From: a virus
Taxonomy: Duplodnaviria; Caudoviricetes
Length of the DNA stretch: 52,887 nt
Strand: one strand, 5' to 3'
IMG/VR virus record: IMGVR_UViG_3300020596_000029
Span: 1-52,887 of that record
In this document: positions 5,036-9,753 of the stretch, one piece after another
Layout of the letters: each line of letters begins with the position of its first letter
How positions within the stretch are numbered: position 1 is the stretch's first letter
Position numbers and translations under genes: made by a program
Notes under the pieces: generated by a model
Told to the model about the DNA's origin: nothing
What the model saw: the letters and a program-made list of their open reading frames with translations, nothing else
Database searches by the model: none

Positions 5036-5644
5036 ATGAACAGCATAGTAAACATGGCGGGTAATTTGGGATTCAAGGTGCAACGCGCACAGGGCGCTCC
5101 CCTCGCTTGGCGCATTCGTAACGCGCTGCGACCGAGCTTTTGGAGTGGATGGCTGGCTGTGCAAATGGCCAAAGCCTTTAGTGCGCTGACAGGCTTCCCC
5201 ATCCTTCACAGCCAGCTAGAAGTACAACTGCGCCGCAAGGACGGCAGCCGCGTCAACTACGGCGTGGTGGGCTATCGCGTCGTGACCACGGCCTTTGTCA
5301 CCTTCGTGGTGGATCAGTTGCAAACAGAAACGGCCGTCTTCGGTGACTTCAAATTTCACGACAGCGGCGTTGGCGTTACGGCGGAAAATGTAGCCAATAC
5401 CACGATGGAAACGACAGACGGCGAGGCGCGCGTGAGTGGTACGCAGACCGAGAGCGCAGCGACGATTTACCAAAGTGTCGGCACGATCACCTACACGACC
5501 ACGAAAGCCATAACCGAGCATGGTTTGTTCAACGACTTGACCGCTGGAACTTTAATGGACAGAACAGTATTCACGGCAATAAATGTGGTAAACACTGACG
5601 CCTGTACTTTTACGTACTCTCTGACTGTATCGGCTGGCGGATAA
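5036..5644 (+). CDS. Hypothetical virion-associated protein
   Basis: GAGGA RBS. C-terminal ITEHGLFN..GTLMDR..F..INV motif resembles phage fibre-attachment proteins. Confidence 0.55.
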   Translation: MNSIVNMAGNLGFKVQRAQGAPLAWRIRNALRPSFWSGWLAVQMAKAFSALTGFPILHSQLEVQLRRKDGSRVNYGVVGYRVVTTAFVTFVVDQLQTETAVFGDFKFHDSGVGVTAENVANTTMETTDGEARVSGTQTESAATIYQSVGTITYTTTKAITEHGLFNDLTAGTLMDRTVFTAINVVNTDACTFTYSLTVSAGG

Positions 5645-5659
5645 GTAAATGGGGGCAGC

Positions 5660-5956
5660 ATGGCAAACGGCTATACCGTAGGCGACCTCGTAAAGGTCGC
5701 AGCAATCTTTACCAACGCGGCAGGGACGGCGGTAGACCCCACTGCCGTTCTTGCCAAATACAAGACGCCGGCGGGCGTCATAACTACGCTCACCTATGGC
5801 GTGGACGCCGCGTTGGTGCGCGACAGCGCGGGCAACTATCACGTGGACATTAACGCCGCCTCAGAAGGTCGCTGGCGATACCGCTTTTACTCGACAGGCA
5901 CGGGCCAAGCCGCCAACGAGGAAGATTTCATCGTGTCGGGAAGCAGCTTCGATTGA
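5660..5956 (+). CDS. Small beta-rich (Ig-like) hypothetical protein
   Basis: In operon. Motifs VDPT..., GNYHVDI, GRWRYRF. Confidence 0.6.
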   Translation: MANGYTVGDLVKVAAIFTNAAGTAVDPTAVLAKYKTPAGVITTLTYGVDAALVRDSAGNYHVDINAASEGRWRYRFYSTGTGQAANEEDFIVSGSSFD

Positions 5957-6453
5957 TGCCAAACGTTTATTTGCCACAGGTGTTTGGCACCGGCCCCACC
6001 TCGCAAGGCGGCTTGTCTGTGGAGCGCGAGGTGTACGCCCTTATGGCCTCCCATGCCGAACAAGGGCGCGTCGGCATGGCATGGGACGACGCTCTTGCCG
6101 ACATTGCCCATTCGCGCGTGATGAGCCAAGCGCGCGACGGCTGGTCGGGGCATGTAGACCCACAGGGGCGTGGGCCTAATGCTTACTGTCGCATGGTAGG
6201 CTACCAACTTCCTGACTGGTATTTGCAGGATAACGACGCGAACAACATTGAGAGCATCGCAGATTCAGGAGACGGCAGCGTCGAAGGCGTGTGGGACTCG
6301 TGGCTCGGCTCAACTGGCCATCGTATGCACATTTTAGCGACAGACAGTTTTTACAAGGCGCAAACTCAGGTTGGCATTGCGTATTACTATCTGGCGACAA
6401 GTAAGCATTTGCACTACTGGTGCATTCTTAGTGCGCCGATGGTGGGGGAGTAG
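5953..6453 (+). CDS. CAP/SCP-domain protein
   Basis: WDDALADIA, GHVDP.G, ESIA, WLGSTGHRMHIL and QVGIAY match the CAP pattern. Confidence 0.8.
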   Translation: MMPNVYLPQVFGTGPTSQGGLSVEREVYALMASHAEQGRVGMAWDDALADIAHSRVMSQARDGWSGHVDPQGRGPNAYCRMVGYQLPDWYLQDNDANNIESIADSGDGSVEGVWDSWLGSTGHRMHILATDSFYKAQTQVGIAYYYLATSKHLHYWCILSAPMVGE

Positions 6454-6459
6454 GGGAGC

Positions 6460-7011
6460 ATGAGCGAGAAGATAAAGGCTTACGAAGTCGATTTGAACGA
6501 GTTGCGACCTGATCCAAGCAACGCCAATGCAGGGTCAGAACGTGGGCAACACATGATTGACGCCTCGGTGACTGAAACAGGGCTGCATAGAGGCGTTGCT
6601 GTAGACGCTAACGGCTATTTAGTGGCAGGTAACAAAACGCATCAATCGGCGATTGATGCAGGATTTAAGCGCGCCATTATTGTTGAGACTTCTGGCGATA
6701 CCCTAGTTGTCACCAAGAGACTTGACTTTGATTTGATGGATGCCGACCCAAACAACAAGGCAAGACGCGCCGCATATTTTGACAACAGAACTTCTGAAGT
6801 GTCTATGCAATGGAATGTCGAGCAACTGTTTGCCGACATGGGCGCGGGGCTTGACCTGTCGGGCATGTTTCGCGAGGACGAGCTAGACGCGATGCTGGCG
6901 GGGATGCAGGTGCCTGACTTTCAGCCTGTGGATGCAAGCGAACAGCCACGCCTTGACCAAAAGAAACCGATTGTCTGCCCGCATTGCGGCGAGGAATTCA
7001 CTCCAGAATGA
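6460..7011 (+). CDS. ParB/Srx-like N-terminal domain protein with C-terminal CxxC
   Basis: LRPDPSNAN, LVAGN, DNRTSE motifs and C-terminal CPHCGEEF. Confidence 0.75.
   Translation: MSEKIKAYEVDLNELRPDPSNANAGSERGQHMIDASVTETGLHRGVAVDANGYLVAGNKTHQSAIDAGFKRAIIVETSGDTLVVTKRLDFDLMDADPNNKARRAAYFDNRTSEVSMQWNVEQLFADMGAGLDLSGMFREDELDAMLAGMQVPDFQPVDASEQPRLDQKKPIVCPHCGEEFTPE
6832..6906. repeat. 75-bp exact direct repeat A, copy 1 (copy 2 at 8138-8212)
   Basis: GCCGACATGGGCGCGGGGCTTGAC...GCTGGCGGGGATG is identical in both ParB genes. Confidence 0.95.
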
Positions 7012-7694
7012 GCAAGGTAGAACTGCGCGTCGATTGGTGTAACCACGAAGCAGCTAAGTACGCTGTGGAGAAGTGGCACTATAGCTGCAGGATGCCTATG
7101 CCTCCAATACTCAAGATAGGTGCGTGGGAATGCAATCAATTCATTGGTGCGATTTTGTTCGCGCGGGGCAACACGCCGACGCTAGGTCATCGGTACGGAT
7201 TGAAAATGCTGGAAGTTTGCGAGCTGGTTCGCGTTGCCTTGACTAATCATGCTTCGCCTGCGAGTCAGATTGTGTCAGCAGCAATGAAATTACTAGAGCA
7301 TAGTAACCCAGGTTTGCGTCTGATTGTGTCTTTTGCAGACCCCGCGCAAGGTCATAACGGCGCAATCTATCAAGCGATGAATTGGGTATATACAGGCGAA
7401 AGCGAACCATCGTGGCAATGGTTGCACGAGGGGCGTTGGAAGCATAATCGAGAAATGACATCAGGTGCGTTTGGTGGAGCGCGAAAAGTCGCAGACTTAG
7501 CGGTGCTTACCAAGCGTCTGCCGCTTGGTAAGCACCGCTATCTCTACCCGCTTGACCGTGCCATGCGTAAGCAGATTGCACCACTCGCCAAGCCGTACCC
7601 GAAACGTTTACCCCGCGGGCAAAGTGTCGAAGGTGACACGTCCAACGACCAGTTGGAAGAGGCAGGTTCAATCCCTGCTGCCCGCTCTGAATGA
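7008..7694 (+). CDS. mom: Mom-family (GNAT-fold) DNA adenine hypermodification protein
   Basis: Motifs KWHYS, CELVRVAL, LIVSFADPAQGHNGAIYQAMNWVYTG, K.RYLYPL..PYPK. ATGA overlap with the ParB-like gene. Confidence 0.8.
   Translation: MSKVELRVDWCNHEAAKYAVEKWHYSCRMPMPPILKIGAWECNQFIGAILFARGNTPTLGHRYGLKMLEVCELVRVALTNHASPASQIVSAAMKLLEHSNPGLRLIVSFADPAQGHNGAIYQAMNWVYTGESEPSWQWLHEGRWKHNREMTSGAFGGARKVADLAVLTKRLPLGKHRYLYPLDRAMRKQIAPLAKPYPKRLPRGQSVEGDTSNDQLEEAGSIPAARSE
7615..7686 (+). tRNA. Non-canonical tRNA-Gly-like cloverleaf (anticodon ACC, no encoded CCA) overlapping the mom 3' end
   Basis: Acceptor stem GCGGGCA/TGCCCGC plus discriminator T. D arm GTGTC-GAAGGT-GACAC. Anticodon arm TCCAA-CGACCAG-TTGGA. 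Variable loop AGAG. T arm GCAGG-TTCAATC-CCTGC. Confidence 0.75.
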
Positions 7695-7751
7695 CTAATA
7701 AATTGGATATATTGCGCGATGGCTAGAGGCAACACAGATAAGTACACGATA
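7692..7751. repeat. 60-bp exact direct repeat B, copy 1 (copy 2 at 9325-9384); carries the start of terS
   Basis: TGACTAATAAATTGGATATATTGCGCGATGGCTAGAGGCAACACAGATAAGTACACGATA occurs twice. Confidence 0.95.
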
Positions 7752-7775
7752 CAAGCATGTCAAGAGGCCAAATGA
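7719..7775 (+). pseudogene. Truncated duplicate of the terS N-terminus (MARGNTDKYTIQACQEAK)
   Basis: First 11 codons identical to terS. Stop overlaps the ATG at 7772. Confidence 0.6.
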
Positions 7776-9331
7776 CTGAGAAGATAAGCAAGGCAAATTT
7801 AGCCGACATCCACTTCGATAAGTCGAACGCGAACAAGAGCAGCGAACGTGGGCGCGGCATGATCGAAGCGTCTATGCGTGAGTTTGGCTTTGCCGACGCC
7901 GGAACACTCGACCGAAATAATGTCATAATTGGCGGAAACAAGCGCACGGAGGTAGCGGGTGAAATTGCGCTAAGTGACGAGGCTATCATCATAGACGTGG
8001 ATGGCACGAAGCCTGTGTACATTCGGCGCAATGACCTTGACCTGAGCGACCCAGAGGATGACAGGGCGCGCAAACTTGCCTATGCGCTGAATCGCACAAG
8101 TGAAGTGTCTATGACTTGGGACACCGAGCAACTCCTAGCCGACATGGGCGCGGGGCTTGACCTGTCGGGCATGTTTCGCGAGGACGAGCTAGACGCGATG
8201 CTGGCGGGGATGATGCCTGAGCCTATGACCGACGCGGGCGCGCAGGTGGATAAGGCAGACGAGTTGCGCCAAAAGTGGGGCGTTGAGTTGGGCCAAATGT
8301 GGCAGCTTGGCGAGCATCGGCTGATCTGCGGCGATTGCACAGATGCCGAGGTGGTGGCAAGGGTGATGCAAGGCGAGAAGGCTGTTTTGTGCCACGCCGA
8401 TCCGCCATACGGCATGGGCAAGGAGAATGAGGGCATCGCCAATGACAACCTGTATCGCGAGAAGCTAGACGCCTTCCAGATGGCATGGTGGCACGCGTGC
8501 CGTCCTGCGCTTGAGGACAATGCCAGCGCGTACATTTGGGGCAACGCTGAGGGCCTGTGGCGACTATGGTATTGCAGTGGATTGCGCGACAGCGAACGAT
8601 TGACGTTCCGCAATGAGATTGTCTGGGACAAAGGCGGCGGTGGATTTGGCGTTGGGACTGAGGGGTTACGCTGCTATTTCCCAGAGGAGCATTGTCTGTT
8701 TTTTATGTTGGGCGAGCAGGGATTTAACAACAACGCCGACAACTATTGGGAGGGGTGGGAGCCGATACGCGCCTATTTGGACGACGAACGGCTCAAGATG
8801 GGGTGGAATAATAAATTTGTTGCCGATCTATTCGGTTTCCATCCGAGAATGGCAGATCATTGGTTCAATATTTCGCAATGGTCAATGCCGAAAGACGAAC
8901 AATATAAACGGATGCAACAAGCCGCACGCGGCGACGCCTTCAAGCGGGACTATGACGACCTCAAGCGGGACTATGACGACCTCAAGCGGGACTATGACGA
9001 CCTCAAGCGGGACTTCTACGCCACGCGTGCCTACTTCGACAACGCCCACGACAATATGACCGACGTGTGGCGTTTCAACCGCGTGCATAACGAAGATCGA
9101 TATGGTCACGCCACGCCCAAGCCCGTTGATATGATTGCGCGAGTCATCAAGAGTAGCACGCCAGAGGGGGGCATCGTTTACGTTCCCTTCGCGGGGACGT
9201 TGCCAGAGGTGATCGCCTGCGAGCAACTTGGGCGCAAGTGCCGAGCCGTGGAAATAAGTCCCGCCTACGTCGCCGTTGCCTTGCAACGCTTTGCTGATTC
9301 GACAGAAAAAACGTGTGTGCTAGTTGACTAA
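7772..9331 (+). CDS. ParB-like domain fused to an N6-A/N4-C DNA methyltransferase
   Basis: ParB-like N-terminus, HRLICGDCT, catalytic DPPY, HATPKP, and degenerate SAM-binding VPFAGT. Confidence 0.9.
   Translation: MTEKISKANLADIHFDKSNANKSSERGRGMIEASMREFGFADAGTLDRNNVIIGGNKRTEVAGEIALSDEAIIIDVDGTKPVYIRRNDLDLSDPEDDRARKLAYALNRTSEVSMTWDTEQLLADMGAGLDLSGMFREDELDAMLAGMMPEPMTDAGAQVDKADELRQKWGVELGQMWQLGEHRLICGDCTDAEVVARVMQGEKAVLCHADPPYGMGKENEGIANDNLYREKLDAFQMAWWHACRPALEDNASAYIWGNAEGLWRLWYCSGLRDSERLTFRNEIVWDKGGGGFGVGTEGLRCYFPEEHCLFFMLGEQGFNNNADNYWEGWEPIRAYLDDERLKMGWNNKFVADLFGFHPRMADHWFNISQWSMPKDEQYKRMQQAARGDAFKRDYDDLKRDYDDLKRDYDDLKRDFYATRAYFDNAHDNMTDVWRFNRVHNEDRYGHATPKPVDMIARVIKSSTPEGGIVYVPFAGTLPEVIACEQLGRKCRAVEISPAYVAVALQRFADSTEKTCVLVD
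8138..8212. repeat. 75-bp exact direct repeat A, copy 2
   Basis: Identical to 6832-6906. Confidence 0.95.
8940..9014 (+). repeat. 21-bp in-frame tandem repeat, about 3.5 copies (KRDYDDL)
   Basis: Unit TCAAGCGGGACTATGACGACC. Confidence 0.95.
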
Positions 9332-9384
9332 TAAATTGGATATATTGCGCGATGGCTAGAGGCAACACAGATAAGTACACGATA
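9325..9384. repeat. 60-bp exact direct repeat B, copy 2
   Basis: Identical to 7692-7751. Confidence 0.95.
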
Positions 9385-9753
9385 GAGCAAATTATTACCG
9401 CCATCAAGGGCAGTAGCGGTATCAAGATGACGATCATGCGTCGCCTTGATTGCAGCCGCAACACGGTGGACAACTACCTGCGTCGCTATGCCACGGCGCA
9501 AGCTGCCTACGACGAGGAGACGGAGCTGCCGCTTGACTTTGCCGAGTCGATTGTGATTAACGACATGGCGAACAATCGCAGTGTCGAAACGGCGAAATGG
9601 TATCTCAAGGCGAAGGGTAGAAGCCGCGGGTACACAGACCGCAGCGAGACGGAGCATAGCGGGACAATCGAGCATAAACATGTCACTGAACTTAGCGACG
9701 AAGAACTTTCCCGTATCGCCGCCCTTAGCGGCAGCGGAACTGCTAAGGCGTAG
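9352..9753 (+). CDS. terS: Terminase small subunit
   Basis: N-terminal HTH, KWYLK..G..RGY motif, overlaps terL. Confidence 0.75.
   Translation: MARGNTDKYTIEQIITAIKGSSGIKMTIMRRLDCSRNTVDNYLRRYATAQAAYDEETELPLDFAESIVINDMANNRSVETAKWYLKAKGRSRGYTDRSETEHSGTIEHKHVTELSDEELSRIAALSGSGTAKA

What the first reader, a model, noticed from the sequence alone, without database searches (positions are those of the whole stretch)
7008..7694. Mom-like DNA hypermodification gene carries a built-in, non-canonical tRNA-Gly
Seen: just after the conserved Mom end (PYPK), bases 7615-7686 fold into a full cloverleaf in which all four stems are perfectly Watson-Crick paired and the T loop is canonical (TTCAATC). It keeps the established bacterial GlyRS identity set: G1-C72, C2-G71, G3-C70, C35, C36 and discriminator U73. 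It breaks features expected of translating tRNAs: A at position 8, G at 33 (no U-turn), a 5-bp D stem, the rare ACC anticodon and no encoded CCA. Established: Mu Mom makes N6-carbamoylmethyl-adenine. From memory, and needing verification, recent biochemistry implicates Gly-tRNA(Gly) as the donor. Inference: the phage co-encodes a dedicated, ribosome-excluded glycyl donor, or a substrate mimic by which Mom regulates its own mRNA. The last ~25 codons may be only a read-through of this RNA.
Basis: partly seen in the sequence, partly recalled or inferred. Interest (0 to 1): 0.9.

Follow-up and report, generated by a model that had tools for sequence, protein, structure and literature searches.

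The report
Mom gene with its own tRNA-Gly
A phage DNA-modification gene (mom), whose enzyme family is known to take glycine from charged tRNA-Gly, ends in a glycine-tRNA-like RNA gene, and the same pairing recurs in over a hundred related phages, which suggests the phage brings its own glycine carrier.

Summary
Window 7615-7686 (+) is a 72-nt cloverleaf with four fully Watson-Crick stems, anticodon ACC, G33, A8, U73 and no encoded CCA. It lies inside the last 26 codons of a Mom (PF25680) ORF.

It is not chance. A covariance model built without the window's clade finds this one site in the whole window, at 78.8 bits; the next best scores 12.6.

An equivalent element abuts the mom 3' end in 111 of 125 distinct homologous loci, with extensive compensatory changes. 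Two forms occur: a full cloverleaf and a form without a D arm.

The family keeps the bacterial GlyRS determinants: G1-C72, C2-G71, U73, C35 and C36. It does not keep features needed for decoding: U33, loop size, position 34, the T-loop UUC or the D arm.

The peptide read from the element is not conserved and is predicted disordered.

Published work shows that Mu Mom uses Gly-tRNAGly as donor. I found no paper noting a mom-linked tRNA.

Best reading (about 0.6): a phage-encoded glycyl carrier for Mom that is largely insulated from translation. Expression, charging and use by Mom are untested.

The parts
6460..7011 (+). ParB-like gene directly upstream; its stop overlaps the mom start (ATGA).
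   Evidence: 183-aa ORF. PHROG 620, ParB-like partition protein, E 2e-17. The same ParB-like/Mom order is annotated in cultured phages.
7008..7694 (+). mom ORF (228 aa, stop at 7692-7694). The Mom core occupies about 7020-7604 and ends with PYPK.
   Evidence: Pfam PF25680 at E 1e-43, residues 5-199. PHROG 1384 at E 3e-50. The HMM core ends at nt 7604. R75 and S86 align with Mu R111 and S124, which PMC13219725 reports as essential. AlphaFold mean pLDDT is 81.8.
7605..7691 (+). C-terminal tail of the ORF (residues 200-228). It is probably only a translation of the linker and the tRNA-like element.
   Evidence: pLDDT is below 50 for residues 202-228, with no secondary structure. Mu Mom ends at the aligned PYPK. 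Across loci the element lies in all three phases, and the ORF stops before or inside it in 28 of 101 cases.
7615..7686 (+). tRNAGly-like RNA gene, 72 nt from G1 to discriminator U73; no CCA is encoded (CUG follows).
   Evidence: ARAGORN calls tRNA-Gly(acc). The MFE fold is the cloverleaf, z -4.49. R1 scores 82 bits. The independent model R3 scores 78.8 bits, E 7e-17, and this is its only significant hit in the window.
7646..7652 (+). Anticodon loop C32 G33 A34 C35 C36 A37 G38; the anticodon ACC is at 7648-7650.
   Evidence: Read from the sequence and from ARAGORN's anticodon position 34. Across the family C35 and C36 are each kept in 82 of 89 elements, while U33 is kept in only 42 of 89 and position 34 is free.
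7662..7678 (+). T arm: GCAGG, loop UUCAAUC, CCUGC.
   Evidence: Across the family, T-loop positions 54-56 are UUC in only 37 of 98 elements and UGC or UGU in 34 of 98.
7757..9331 (+). Next gene downstream: a ParB-like N-terminal domain fused to an N6/N4 DNA methyltransferase. It is a second DNA-modification gene in the same cluster.
   Evidence: Pfam PF01555 at E 4e-26. PHROG 498 at E 1e-71 and PHROG 620 at E 4e-16. The scan listed no promoter-like site on the + strand and no terminator-like site between 7000 and 7757; the counts for 5500-9500 equal the shuffled expectation.

Best explanation
The window carries a two-part DNA-hypermodification module.
- Part one is a Mom-family GNAT enzyme.
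- Part two is a tRNAGly-derived RNA gene, overlapping the enzyme gene's last 26 codons on the same strand.

Proposed mechanism:
1. The RNA is transcribed with mom.
2. The host tRNA-processing enzymes cut it out: RNase P at G1, and a 3' endo- or exonuclease after U73.
3. The host CCA-adding enzyme supplies CCA. Half of the family encodes CCA itself.
4. Host GlyRS charges the RNA with glycine, because the RNA keeps the bacterial tRNAGly determinants.
5. Mom consumes the charged RNA as the glycyl donor for N6-adenine modification of phage DNA.

The family has lost constraints that matter only for decoding. The window's copy has G33, A34 and A8. Elsewhere there are 5-8-nt loops, non-UUC T loops, a bulged A in the T stem and loss of the D arm. 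It therefore probably acts as a private pool of activated glycine that EF-Tu and the ribosome use poorly.

What is shown and what is inferred:
- Shown here: the structure, its conservation and covariation, its tight linkage to mom, and the pattern of conserved versus relaxed positions.
- Shown by others: Mu Mom needs Gly-tRNAGly.
- Inferred: transcription, processing, charging, use by Mom and exclusion from translation.
For: Linkage to mom
- Of 141 loci searched, 125 are distinct, have the Mom core end and have at least 120 nt downstream.
  - 87 have an R1 hit on the mom strand starting -3 to +57 nt from the PYPK codon; most start at -1 to +10.
  - 2 more (L012, L096) have the hit after the second of two mom copies.
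  - 22 more carry the short form found by R2.
  - Total: 111 of 125.
- ARAGORN on 153 loci called 27 tRNAs. 22 are tRNA-Gly and all 22 lie at the mom 3' end.
- The reverse test used RNA-only patterns in viral contigs.
  - The short-form pattern matched 105 stretches, of which 80 became loci.
  - 69 of those 80 have a full Mom core ending just upstream and 8 have a partial Mom match.
- In the complete genomes of Arthrobacter phages Martha and Wyborn and Microbacterium phage Appa, the mom-adjacent element is the only RF00005 hit over the cut-off.

Selection acts on the RNA
- Alignment A3 (87 distinct rows): 93.5% of cells paired, and 18 of 21 pairs with double changes.
- 501 double-change cells against 128 +/- 9 in shuffles, and at most 67 for slid partners.
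- Alignment A5 was made by MAFFT only and holds the short form: 98.1% paired, and 61 double-change cells against 14.7 in shuffles.

Conserved positions match the GlyRS determinants
- Positions 1-3 are GCG in 105 and GCC in 5 of 110, the latter with a compensating GGC.
- The discriminator is U in 107 of 110.
- C35 and C36 are each present in 82 of 89.
- PMC10464925 names G1-C72, C2-G71, C35, C36 and U73 as the eubacterial determinants (passages read).
- U73 is found in 231,855 of 232,109 bacterial tRNAGly genes and protects Gly-tRNAGly from DTD (PMC6097841).

Decoding features are relaxed
- U33 in 42 of 89; position 34 is U 39, A 35, C 10, G 5.
- 14 of 103 distinct elements have loops of other sizes.
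- A8 in 53 of 64 long-form elements.
- T-loop UUC in 37 of 98.
- RF00005 accepts 7 of 20 representative elements.

A trans-acting product is likely
- The element lies on the opposite strand in Appa and Warren.
- It lies after the mom stop codon in 5 of 101 loci.

Biochemical logic
- Mu Mom uses Gly-tRNAGly of any isoacceptor but not Gly-tRNAAla (PMC13219725, section 10).
- The window's Mom keeps the residues that align with Mu R111 and S124.

Precedent
- Staphylococcal non-proteogenic tRNAGly supplies the Fem transferases, binds EF-Tu weakly and has UGC or UGU in the T loop (PMC7826273, passages).
Against: - There is no expression, processing or charging evidence of any kind.
- The window's copy has a canonical T arm and perfect stems, so nothing in it directly predicts weak EF-Tu binding.
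- Cutting the RNA out at G1 would leave mom mRNA without a stop codon in 96 of 101 loci.
  - That is costly unless each transcript is either translated or processed, or unless the cut is itself regulatory.
- The mom frame stays open through the element more often than the other two frames do: 73 of 101 against 83 of 202 (the lineages are not independent). The donor model does not explain this.
- L. plantarum GlyRS was reported to need the arms and the whole L shape (PMC10464925). Charging of the D-arm-less form is therefore doubtful.
- Mu Mom works with host tRNAGly alone. Twelve cultured-phage Moms lack the element, eleven of them with 24-36% identity to the window's Mom and phiEf11 at 44%. 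So do 14 of the 125 loci. A dedicated RNA is therefore not required for Mom chemistry.
- The figure of 111 of 125 describes the Mom subfamily nearest the window: the best 80 of 567 viral relatives plus 53 genome loci. It does not describe all Mom proteins.
Confidence: 0.6

Rival explanations
1. The element acts in cis as part of the mom transcript. It could be an RNase P or 3'-processing site that truncates or stabilises the message and so limits production of Mom. It could instead be a tRNA mimic bound by Mom or GlyRS for feedback control. In this reading its value lies in regulation, not in donating glycine.
For: - The element overlaps the coding sequence and starts -3 to +10 nt after PYPK in most loci.
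- The scan listed no + strand promoter-like site and no terminator-like site between mom and the element or the next gene.
- Excision at G1 would remove the stop codon in 96 of 101 loci.
- The mom frame is open through the element more often than the other frames, 73 of 101 against 83 of 202. This hints at an interplay between translation and RNA folding.
- Mu mom is annotated with a dedicated translational regulator, Com, so tight control of Mom has a precedent.
Against: - RNase P needs neither C35, C36 nor U73, yet these are the best conserved bases outside the stems.
- In Appa and Warren the tRNA-Gly lies on the opposite strand and cannot be part of mom mRNA.
- In 5 of 101 loci it lies after the stop codon.
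- CCA is encoded in 55 of 110 elements, which points to a free, chargeable 3' end.
- This reading can coexist with the donor model.
Confidence: 0.2
2. It is an ordinary phage tRNA-Gly used in translation. It would boost the supply of tRNAGly that Mom drains, match codon usage, or replace host tRNAs attacked by defence nucleases. It sits next to mom by linkage only.
For: - Some family members look like normal tRNAs. L035, L038, L096, L016, L019, L010 and the Appa element pass Rfam's tRNA threshold at 31-51 bits.
- Several have U8, U33 and a UCC or CCC anticodon.
- Phage-encoded tRNAs that counter tRNA-targeting defences are known (PMC12409363; abstract start seen in the search listing).
Against: - The window's copy has G33, A34 and A8, and fails RF00005.
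- Across the family U33 is kept in only 42 of 89 elements, and loops of 5, 6 and 8 nt occur.
- 13 of 20 representatives fail RF00005.
- Twenty-two of the 125 loci carry the short form that only model R2 detects, and the 22 sequences of alignment A5 show that the D arm is absent.
- It is the only tRNA-like gene in the window and in three complete phage genomes, and it is always Gly.
Confidence: 0.12
3. It is a remnant with no present function: a decayed tRNA, an integration (att) site copy, or a chance cloverleaf inside a coding tail.
For: - Temperate phages often carry tRNA gene fragments at att sites (established knowledge, not tested here).
- Rfam's tRNA model does not accept the window's element.
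- Two loci (L184, L242) show decayed copies.
Against: - All four stems are intact and compensatory changes are abundant.
- The element occupies a fixed position against mom in 111 of 125 loci spanning many bacterial phyla and one archaeon.
- The whole tRNA is present, not only a 3' half.
- In the two decayed loci, mom is truncated together with the element.
- R3 scores 78.8 bits at E 7e-17.
Confidence: 0.03

Closest known systems
Non-proteogenic tRNAGly isoacceptors (NP1-NP3) of Staphylococcus aureus and S. epidermidis, which supply FmhB, FemA and FemB
   Same: - Extra tRNAGly species that keep GlyRS recognition and U73.
- They are poor partners of EF-Tu and the ribosome, and they feed an aminoacyl-tRNA-dependent transferase outside translation.
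- Their T loop carries UGC or UGU instead of UUC (PMC7826273). The same change occurs in 34 of 98 mom-linked elements.
   Different: - They are cellular genes of one bacterial genus and serve cell-wall synthesis. They are full cloverleaves with U33 and a UCC anticodon.
- The present family is viral or proviral and physically fused to the gene of the presumed consumer enzyme. It varies at positions 33 and 34, and a sizeable minority (22 of the 125 loci by R2-only detection) lacks the D arm.
- The window's copy has UUC and a regular T stem (G49-C65, C50-G64, A51-U63), so only A51-U63 matches the staphylococcal weak-binding set.
- No common descent is implied.
Bacteriophage Mu Mom, a GNAT enzyme that uses Gly-tRNAGly to make N6-carbamoylmethyl-adenine (PMC13219725)
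   Same: - Same protein family: PF25680 at E 1e-43; 28% identity over 207 residues, E 6e-19.
- R111 and S124 of Mu align with R75 and S86 of the window.
- Both end their conserved core at PYPK.
   Different: - Mu has no tRNA-like element (best R1 score 6.5 bits, filters off) and relies on host tRNAGly.
- Mu mom is controlled by Com, whereas the window's mom follows a ParB-like gene.
- The text I read describes Mom as harvesting a host resource and says nothing of phage-encoded donors.
Phage-encoded tRNA genes
   Same: A tRNA-shaped gene in a phage genome, transcribed from phage DNA and dependent on host processing and host synthetases.
   Different: - Usual phage tRNAs are canonical decoders, often clustered, and explained by codon usage or escape from tRNA-targeting defences.
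- This one is single, always Gly, glued to one enzyme gene, overlaps that gene's coding sequence and is relaxed at positions needed for decoding.
Aminoacylatable 3' tRNA-like structures (TLS) of plant positive-strand RNA viruses
   Same: A viral RNA element that imitates a tRNA and can be charged by a host synthetase while attached to a message.
   Different: - Those are 3'-terminal parts of RNA genomes with pseudoknotted acceptor arms, they accept Val, His or Tyr, and they serve replication or translation (abstracts in the search listing).
- This one is a DNA-phage gene with an ordinary 7-bp acceptor stem and glycine identity.

Membership tests
Mom protein family (PF25680) | Match to the family profile above the curated cut-off | tested here: met
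   149.8 bits against a cut-off of 27.1, E 1e-43, residues 5-199 aligned to profile positions 1-202 of 202. PHROG 1384 at E 3e-50.
Mom protein family (PF25680) | Residues reported as essential in Mu Mom (R111, S124) | tested here: met
   BLASTP aligns window R75 with Mu R111 and window S86 with Mu S124. R75 is invariant in the 12-sequence alignment A1. That these residues are essential comes from the abstract of PMC13219725.
Mom protein family (PF25680) | Glycyl transfer from Gly-tRNAGly to adenine N6 in dsDNA | not testable with these tools
   Shown for Mu Mom and two metagenomic homologues (PMC13219725). Not shown for this protein.
Bacterial tRNAGly (substrate of GlyRS) | Cloverleaf with a 7-bp acceptor stem, D, anticodon and T arms | tested here: met
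   MFE cloverleaf, ARAGORN call, and R3 alignment with no non-standard pairs.
Bacterial tRNAGly (substrate of GlyRS) | Identity determinants G1-C72, C2-G71, C35, C36 and U73 | tested here: met
   All are present in the window. Across the family: GCG or GCC start in 110 of 110, U73 in 107 of 110, and C35 and C36 each in 82 of 89. The determinant list is from PMC10464925.
Bacterial tRNAGly (substrate of GlyRS) | Purine at position 4 with pyrimidine at 69, preferred by L. plantarum GlyRS | tested here: met
   The window has G4-C69. The family is mixed: GC 34, CG 32, UA 14 of 87.
Bacterial tRNAGly (substrate of GlyRS) | Actual glycylation by GlyRS | not testable with these tools
   Needs an in vitro or in vivo charging assay.
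Canonical elongator tRNA (Rfam RF00005; decoding on the ribosome) | Score at or above the Rfam gathering threshold of 29 bits | tested here: not met
   No RF00005 match in the window. The best + strand match from the tRNA clan is tRNA-Sec at 20.8 bits, E 0.18. Among 20 representative mom-linked elements, 7 pass.
Canonical elongator tRNA (Rfam RF00005; decoding on the ribosome) | U33 and U8 | tested here: not met
   The window has G33 and A8. Across the family U33 occurs in 42 of 89 and A8 in 53 of 64 long-form elements. That U33 and U8 are near-universal in decoding tRNAs is established knowledge, recalled and not tested here.
Canonical elongator tRNA (Rfam RF00005; decoding on the ribosome) | T loop with U54-U55-C56 and a 7-nt anticodon loop | tested here: met
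   The window has UUCAAUC and a 7-nt loop. Across the family UUC occurs in 37 of 98, and 14 of 103 elements lack a 5-7-5 anticodon hairpin.
Non-proteogenic tRNAGly (staphylococcal type) | Weak EF-Tu T-stem set (A49-U65, U50-A64, A51-U63) and UGC or UGU in the T loop | tested here: inconclusive
   The window has G49-C65, C50-G64, A51-U63 and UUC, so it matches only at 51-63. Across the family UGC or UGU occurs in 34 of 98. An invariant bulged A lies between positions 63 and 64 in the 22 sequences of alignment A5. The feature list is from PMC7826273.
Non-proteogenic tRNAGly (staphylococcal type) | Low affinity for EF-Tu and the ribosome, and preferential use by the transferase | not testable with these tools
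   Needs binding and kinetic assays.
Non-proteogenic tRNAGly (staphylococcal type) | Membership of the staphylococcal lineage | not tested
   PMC7826273 states that the lineage is present only in staphylococci. No tree of tRNAGly genes was built here. I treat the likeness as functional analogy, not common descent.
tRNA-derived phage attachment site | A partial tRNA (usually the 3' part) at a prophage end, next to an integrase | tested here: not met
   The whole cloverleaf is present and always abuts mom, inside the gene cluster. Neighbouring genes are ParB-like and methyltransferase genes. Integrase proximity was not searched systematically.

The most novel reading that the evidence does not exclude
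The mom-linked RNAs are a widespread family of virus-encoded, non-proteinogenic glycyl carriers.

- The family includes natural D-arm-less 'mini-tRNAs' of 65-69 nt with an encoded CCA and a conserved bulged A in the T stem.
- Host GlyRS charges them and Mom consumes them, while EF-Tu and the ribosome ignore them.
- The RNA is embedded in the mom reading frame. Its excision by RNase P therefore cuts the stop codon off the mom message, so each transcript yields either enzyme or donor.
- That arrangement would couple and self-limit the two halves of a DNA-hypermodification system.
Probability: 0.3. Interest if true: 0.92.

Novelty: new variant of a known kind. Interest (0 to 1): 0.85.

Why it matters
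- The tRNA dependence of Mom was established by biochemistry on one phage, Mu, which has no tRNA of its own. This finding gives independent genomic support: evolution has repeatedly kept a glycine-identity tRNA-like gene welded to mom.
- It also suggests something the published account does not consider, namely that many phages supply their own donor instead of only harvesting the host's.
- If true, this would be the first viral counterpart of the staphylococcal non-proteogenic tRNAGly.
- The family is a natural experiment on what a tRNA must keep in order to be charged and used by a transferase when decoding no longer matters. That includes a minimal form without a D arm.
- For annotation:
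  - The elements are missed in the Arthrobacter phage Martha and Wyborn records.
  - Mom CDSs are extended through them.
  - Rfam's tRNA model rejects 13 of 20 representatives.
- The idea can be tested directly in cultured, harmless systems: Arthrobacter sp. ATCC 21022 phages and Microbacterium foliorum phages.

Tried and rejected
Steps that failed or gave little:
- A strict peptide regex used to anchor the Mom C-terminus missed most loci. I replaced it with an HMM of the Mom core.
  - That anchor mis-assigned L012 and L096, which have two mom copies, and L071.
- The first short-form DNA pattern had a wrong fixed spacer and found nothing. The version with a variable gap found 105 stretches.
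- I tested a 50-64 G.A mismatch in the T stem against a bulged A.
  - The bulge fits better: 98.1% against 92.2% of cells paired.
  - In the bulge model, pair 43-58 shows GC in 20 sequences and AU in 2.
  - I dropped the mismatch model.
- A FastTree of 121 Mom cores:
  - Twelve of the element-less loci sit next to each other in the leaf order.
  - The 65-70-nt and longer elements are intermixed.
  - I examined no support values and draw no conclusion about gains or losses.

Readings considered and rejected:
- A conserved peptide tail: the element lies in three phases, the ORF stops before or inside it in 28 of 101 cases, and AlphaFold predicts disorder.
- An att-site remnant: see the membership test.
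- The minus-strand Rfam match to Plastid-ycf2 (31.1 bits, below its threshold of 65.7). I took it, without testing, to reflect the reverse complement of a tRNA-shaped sequence.

Exceptions to the Mom linkage among pattern matches:
- L177 is an 18-mer match with no cloverleaf.
- L184 and L242 carry a truncated mom together with a truncated element.
- L208 carries a complete element after a methyltransferase-like ORF, with no Mom in the 14-kb locus.

Not seen or not done:
- Supplements of PMC13219725 are closed. The authors annotated more than 8,000 contigs with Prokka (section 38), so tRNA calls next to mom may appear there.
- No metagenome-contig scan was run.
- Complex prediction was not used, because the partner in question is an RNA.

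Basis for saying the link is not in print:
- Searches; the pair 'Mom-like' plus 'tRNA-Gly' returned 0 papers.
- Reading of PMC13219725, the 2023 preprint (passages) and PMC7824862 (passages).
- The library lacks most subscription journals.


Full report
**What is in the window.**
- Window 7008-7694 (+) is a 228-codon ORF. Residues 5-199 match the Mom family (PF25680, E 1e-43; PHROG 1384).
- A ParB-like gene (6460-7011) precedes it. A gene for a ParB-like domain fused to an N6/N4 DNA methyltransferase (7757-9331) follows it.
- No + strand promoter-like site and no terminator-like site was listed between these genes.
- The window is a linear viral record of 52,887 bases, estimated 71% complete.

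**The tRNA-like element.**
- ARAGORN finds one tRNA in the window: tRNA-Gly(acc) at 7615-7687 +.
- The 72 nt from 7615 to 7686 fold into a cloverleaf in which every stem pair is Watson-Crick. The energy is -35 kcal/mol and z is -4.49; none of 200 shuffles folds as well.
- Read from the sequence:
  - G1-C72, C2-G71, G3-C70 and A8.
  - A D stem of 4-5 pairs.
  - Anticodon loop C32 G33 A34 C35 C36 A37 G38.
  - T loop UUCAAUC.
  - Discriminator U73, followed by CUG rather than CCA.
- Rfam's general tRNA model does not accept the element.

**The element is not a chance fold.**
- I built a covariance model (R3) from 20 mom-linked elements of other clades, leaving out the window and its close relatives.
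- Run over the whole window, both strands, without filters, it gives one significant hit: 7615-7687 +, 78.8 bits, E 7e-17. The next best is 12.6 bits, E 0.69.

**The pairing of mom with a tRNAGly-like element is widespread.**
- Loci came from three searches:
  - 21 from viral contigs.
  - 53 from one genome per prokaryote species.
  - The best 80 of 567 viral relatives found with a Mom alignment.
- ARAGORN on the 153 loci called 27 tRNAs. Twenty-two are tRNA-Gly (acc, tcc or ccc) and all 22 lie at the mom 3' end.
- Model R1 was built from 16 of these. It gave 50 and 53 hits in two searches.
  - All hits were on the mom strand.
  - All but six (three true tRNAs, a short partial match in L011, a second copy of the L091 element near the other end of its contig, and a further hit in L012 that follows the second of two mom copies) lay at the end of the mom match.
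- I anchored each locus on the end of the Mom core (the PYPK codons) with an HMM. Of 141 loci searched, 125 are distinct and have the core end plus at least 120 nt downstream.
  - 87 have an R1 hit starting -3 to +57 nt from the core end, most at -1 to +10.
  - 2 more (L012, L096) have two mom copies, with the hit after the second.
  - 22 of the remainder carry a shorter element that R1 misses. Model R2, built from a MAFFT-only alignment of that form, finds them.
  - The total is 111 of 125.
- Fourteen loci have nothing. These are L036, L040, L045, L046, L048, L050, L053, L058, L060, L062, L063, L064, L068 and L073, and most are actinomycete genomes.
- This count describes the Mom subfamily nearest the window, not all Mom proteins.

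**Cultured phages.**
- Eleven phages whose Moms share 24-36% identity with the window's Mom lack the element:
  - Mu, FSL SP-031, pPM_01 and LMTA-57.
  - AS-sw, JD024 and Alsa_3.
  - Stickynote, SplendidRed and Cassita.
- Enterococcus phage phiEf11 (44% identity) lacks it too.
- Carriers:
  - Arthrobacter phages Martha and Wyborn. The element is unannotated there and overlaps the end of the Mom CDS (65.5 and 66.3 bits).
  - Salinibacter phage B2_17, where a tRNA-Gly is annotated 33 nt after the gene.
  - Microbacterium phages Appa and Warren, where an annotated tRNA-Gly(ccc) lies directly after mom but on the opposite strand.
- In the complete genomes of Martha, Wyborn and Appa, this is the only RF00005 hit above the cut-off.

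**The reverse test points the same way.**
- A degenerate pattern taken only from the RNA of the short form matched 105 stretches of viral contigs, of which 80 became loci.
  - 69 have a full Mom core ending just upstream.
  - 8 have a partial Mom match.
  - 3 have none.
- Of those three, two are loci in which mom and the element are truncated together. One (L208) has a complete element after a methyltransferase-like ORF.
- An 18-base stretch of the window's D arm matched 9 contigs. I examined 8 of them.
  - 6 carry Mom.
  - 1 lies at a contig end.
  - 1 is not an element.

**Selection acts on the RNA, not on the peptide.**
- On the 87 distinct rows of the R1 alignment:
  - 93.5% of cells form standard pairs.
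  - 18 of 21 pairs show changes on both sides.
  - There are 501 double-change cells, against 128 +/- 9 in shuffles and at most 67 when partners are slid.
  - This alignment was fitted to the model and so leans towards it.
- The short-form alignment was made by MAFFT alone. It gives 98.1% paired, and 61 double-change cells against 14.7 in shuffles.
- The element lies in all three phases relative to the mom frame: 45, 30 and 26 elements.
- The mom ORF stops before the element in 5, inside it in 23 and after it in 73 of 101 distinct cases.
- Mu Mom ends exactly at the aligned PYPK.
- AlphaFold models the window's Mom confidently up to residue 201. Residues 202-228 have pLDDT below 50 and no secondary structure. 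The element begins in codon 203.
- The tail is therefore best read as a translation of the RNA gene.
- One observation remains unexplained. The mom frame is open through the element more often (73 of 101) than the other two frames (83 of 202), although the lineages are not independent.

**What is conserved and what is not.**
- Conserved, among 110 elements:
  - Positions 1-3 are GCG in 105 and GCC in 5, the latter with a compensating GGC.
  - The acceptor stem has 7 of 7 pairs in 107.
  - The discriminator is U in 107. It is A in the single archaeal locus (L042, Methanobacterium).
  - CCA is encoded in 55.
- Conserved, among the 89 distinct elements with a 5-7-5 anticodon hairpin:
  - C35 and C36 are each present in 82.
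  - A37 is present in 61.
- Not conserved:
  - U33 is present in only 42 of those 89 (G 24, C 13, A 10).
  - Position 34 is U 39, A 35, C 10, G 5.
  - Another 14 elements have loops of other sizes, all containing CC.
  - Position 8 is A in 53 of 64 long-form elements.
  - T-loop positions 54-56 are UUC in 37 of 98, UGC or UGU in 34, and something else in 27.
- The short form (65-69 nt plus CCA), as seen in the 22 sequences of alignment A5:
  - It replaces the D arm with a linker of about 12 nt.
  - It has an invariant bulged A between positions 63 and 64.
- Rfam's tRNA model accepts 7 of 20 representative elements, at 31-51 bits.
- The retained positions are the published eubacterial GlyRS determinants: G1-C72, C2-G71, C35, C36 and U73 (PMC10464925, passages).
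- U73 is nearly unique to bacterial tRNAGly and shields Gly-tRNAGly from the deacylase DTD (PMC6097841, passages).
- The relaxed positions are ones that matter for decoding. That statement rests on established knowledge and was not tested here.

**Connection with known biochemistry.**
- Silva et al. (PMC13219725) show that Mu Mom transfers glycine from Gly-tRNAGly to adenine N6 in dsDNA.
- All three E. coli isoacceptors serve, and mischarged Gly-tRNAAla does not. R111 and S124 are essential (abstract and sections 10 and 14).
- The window's Mom has R75 and S86 at the aligned positions.
- The parts I read describe Mom as exploiting a host resource. They do not mention phage-encoded or adjacent tRNAs. 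The supplements could not be read.
- The 2023 preprint (passages) and the jumbo-phage survey PMC7824862 (passages) do not mention them either.
- Four searches found no paper making the link.

**Best explanation and its weak points.**
- Most likely (about 0.6), the element is a phage-encoded glycyl carrier. It would be co-transcribed with mom, matured by host tRNA-processing enzymes, charged by host GlyRS and consumed by Mom. Having lost decoding constraints, it would be largely invisible to EF-Tu and the ribosome.
- The closest precedent is the staphylococcal non-proteogenic tRNAGly that feeds the Fem transferases. There EF-Tu otherwise sequesters the donor (PMC7826273).
- Weak points:
  - There is no expression or charging evidence.
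  - The window's T arm is canonical.
  - At least one GlyRS needs the whole L shape, which casts doubt on charging of the short form.
  - Mu and other Moms manage without the element.
  - Excision at G1 would leave mom mRNA without a stop codon in 96 of 101 loci.
- That last point, together with the excess of open frames, keeps a cis-regulatory role alive (about 0.2). It could coexist with the donor role.
- Use as an ordinary translational tRNA (about 0.12) fits some near-canonical members but not the window's copy.
- A functionless remnant (about 0.03) is contradicted by the covariation and the linkage.

Noticed in passing
window 7498-7540: A near-perfect inverted repeat of about 19-20 bp with a 4-nt loop lies inside the mom coding region. 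It produced below-threshold matches to several microRNA precursor models on both strands. Its meaning is unknown.
   Followed up: no
window 6460-7011 and 7757-8230: The ParB-like protein upstream of mom and the N-terminal part of the methyltransferase downstream share a ParB-like domain. Both contain an identical stretch of about 25 residues (ADMGAGLDLSGMFREDELDAMLAGM), so mom and its tRNA-like gene sit between two copies of a duplicated segment.
   Followed up: no
window about 8940-9010 (within 7757-9331): The methyltransferase ORF contains three tandem copies of a seven-residue unit (KRDYDDL) between its two methylase blocks. This gave a weak leucine-zipper (HALZ) match, below the cut-off.
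   Followed up: no
L155 2107-2178 (Arthrobacter phage Martha, NC_041932 46356-46426); L167 1301-1372 (phage Wyborn): These cultured-phage records carry an unannotated tRNA-Gly-like gene that passes Rfam's tRNA threshold (36.2 and 42.4 bits). It overlaps the annotated end of the Mom or 'acetyltransferase' CDS and is the only such hit in each genome.
   Followed up: yes
L154 2156-2228 and L169 1356-1428 (Microbacterium phages Appa and Warren): The annotated tRNA-Gly(ccc) lies 33 nt after mom but on the opposite strand, convergent with mom.
   Followed up: partly
L042 2603-2680 (Methanobacterium ferruginis chromosome): An archaeal genome carries a Mom homologue (45% identity) with the element. 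Its discriminator is A rather than U, and ARAGORN miscalls it as tRNA-Val. A73 is the usual partner of the dimeric GlyRS type found in archaea (PMC3990555; abstract start in the listing). This is a single case.
   Followed up: partly
L012 2384-3692 (also L013) and L096: These loci have two mom copies in tandem, and the tRNA-like element follows only the second. In L012 the first copy appears frameshifted.
   Followed up: partly
L208 (reverse strand, about 9100-9330 of the reversed locus): A complete short-form element follows a 332-aa methyltransferase-like ORF rather than mom. The 3' half of a second element lies just upstream, and there is no Mom match in the 14-kb locus.
   Followed up: partly
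L029 2571-2644 and 2662-2729: A tRNA-Met follows the mom-linked element after 17 nt. In at least one genome the element is therefore part of a small tRNA cluster.
   Followed up: no
L091 19-90 and 2175-2246: The same element appears near both ends of a 2,277-nt viral contig, which suggests a terminal repeat or a circularly permuted assembly.
   Followed up: no
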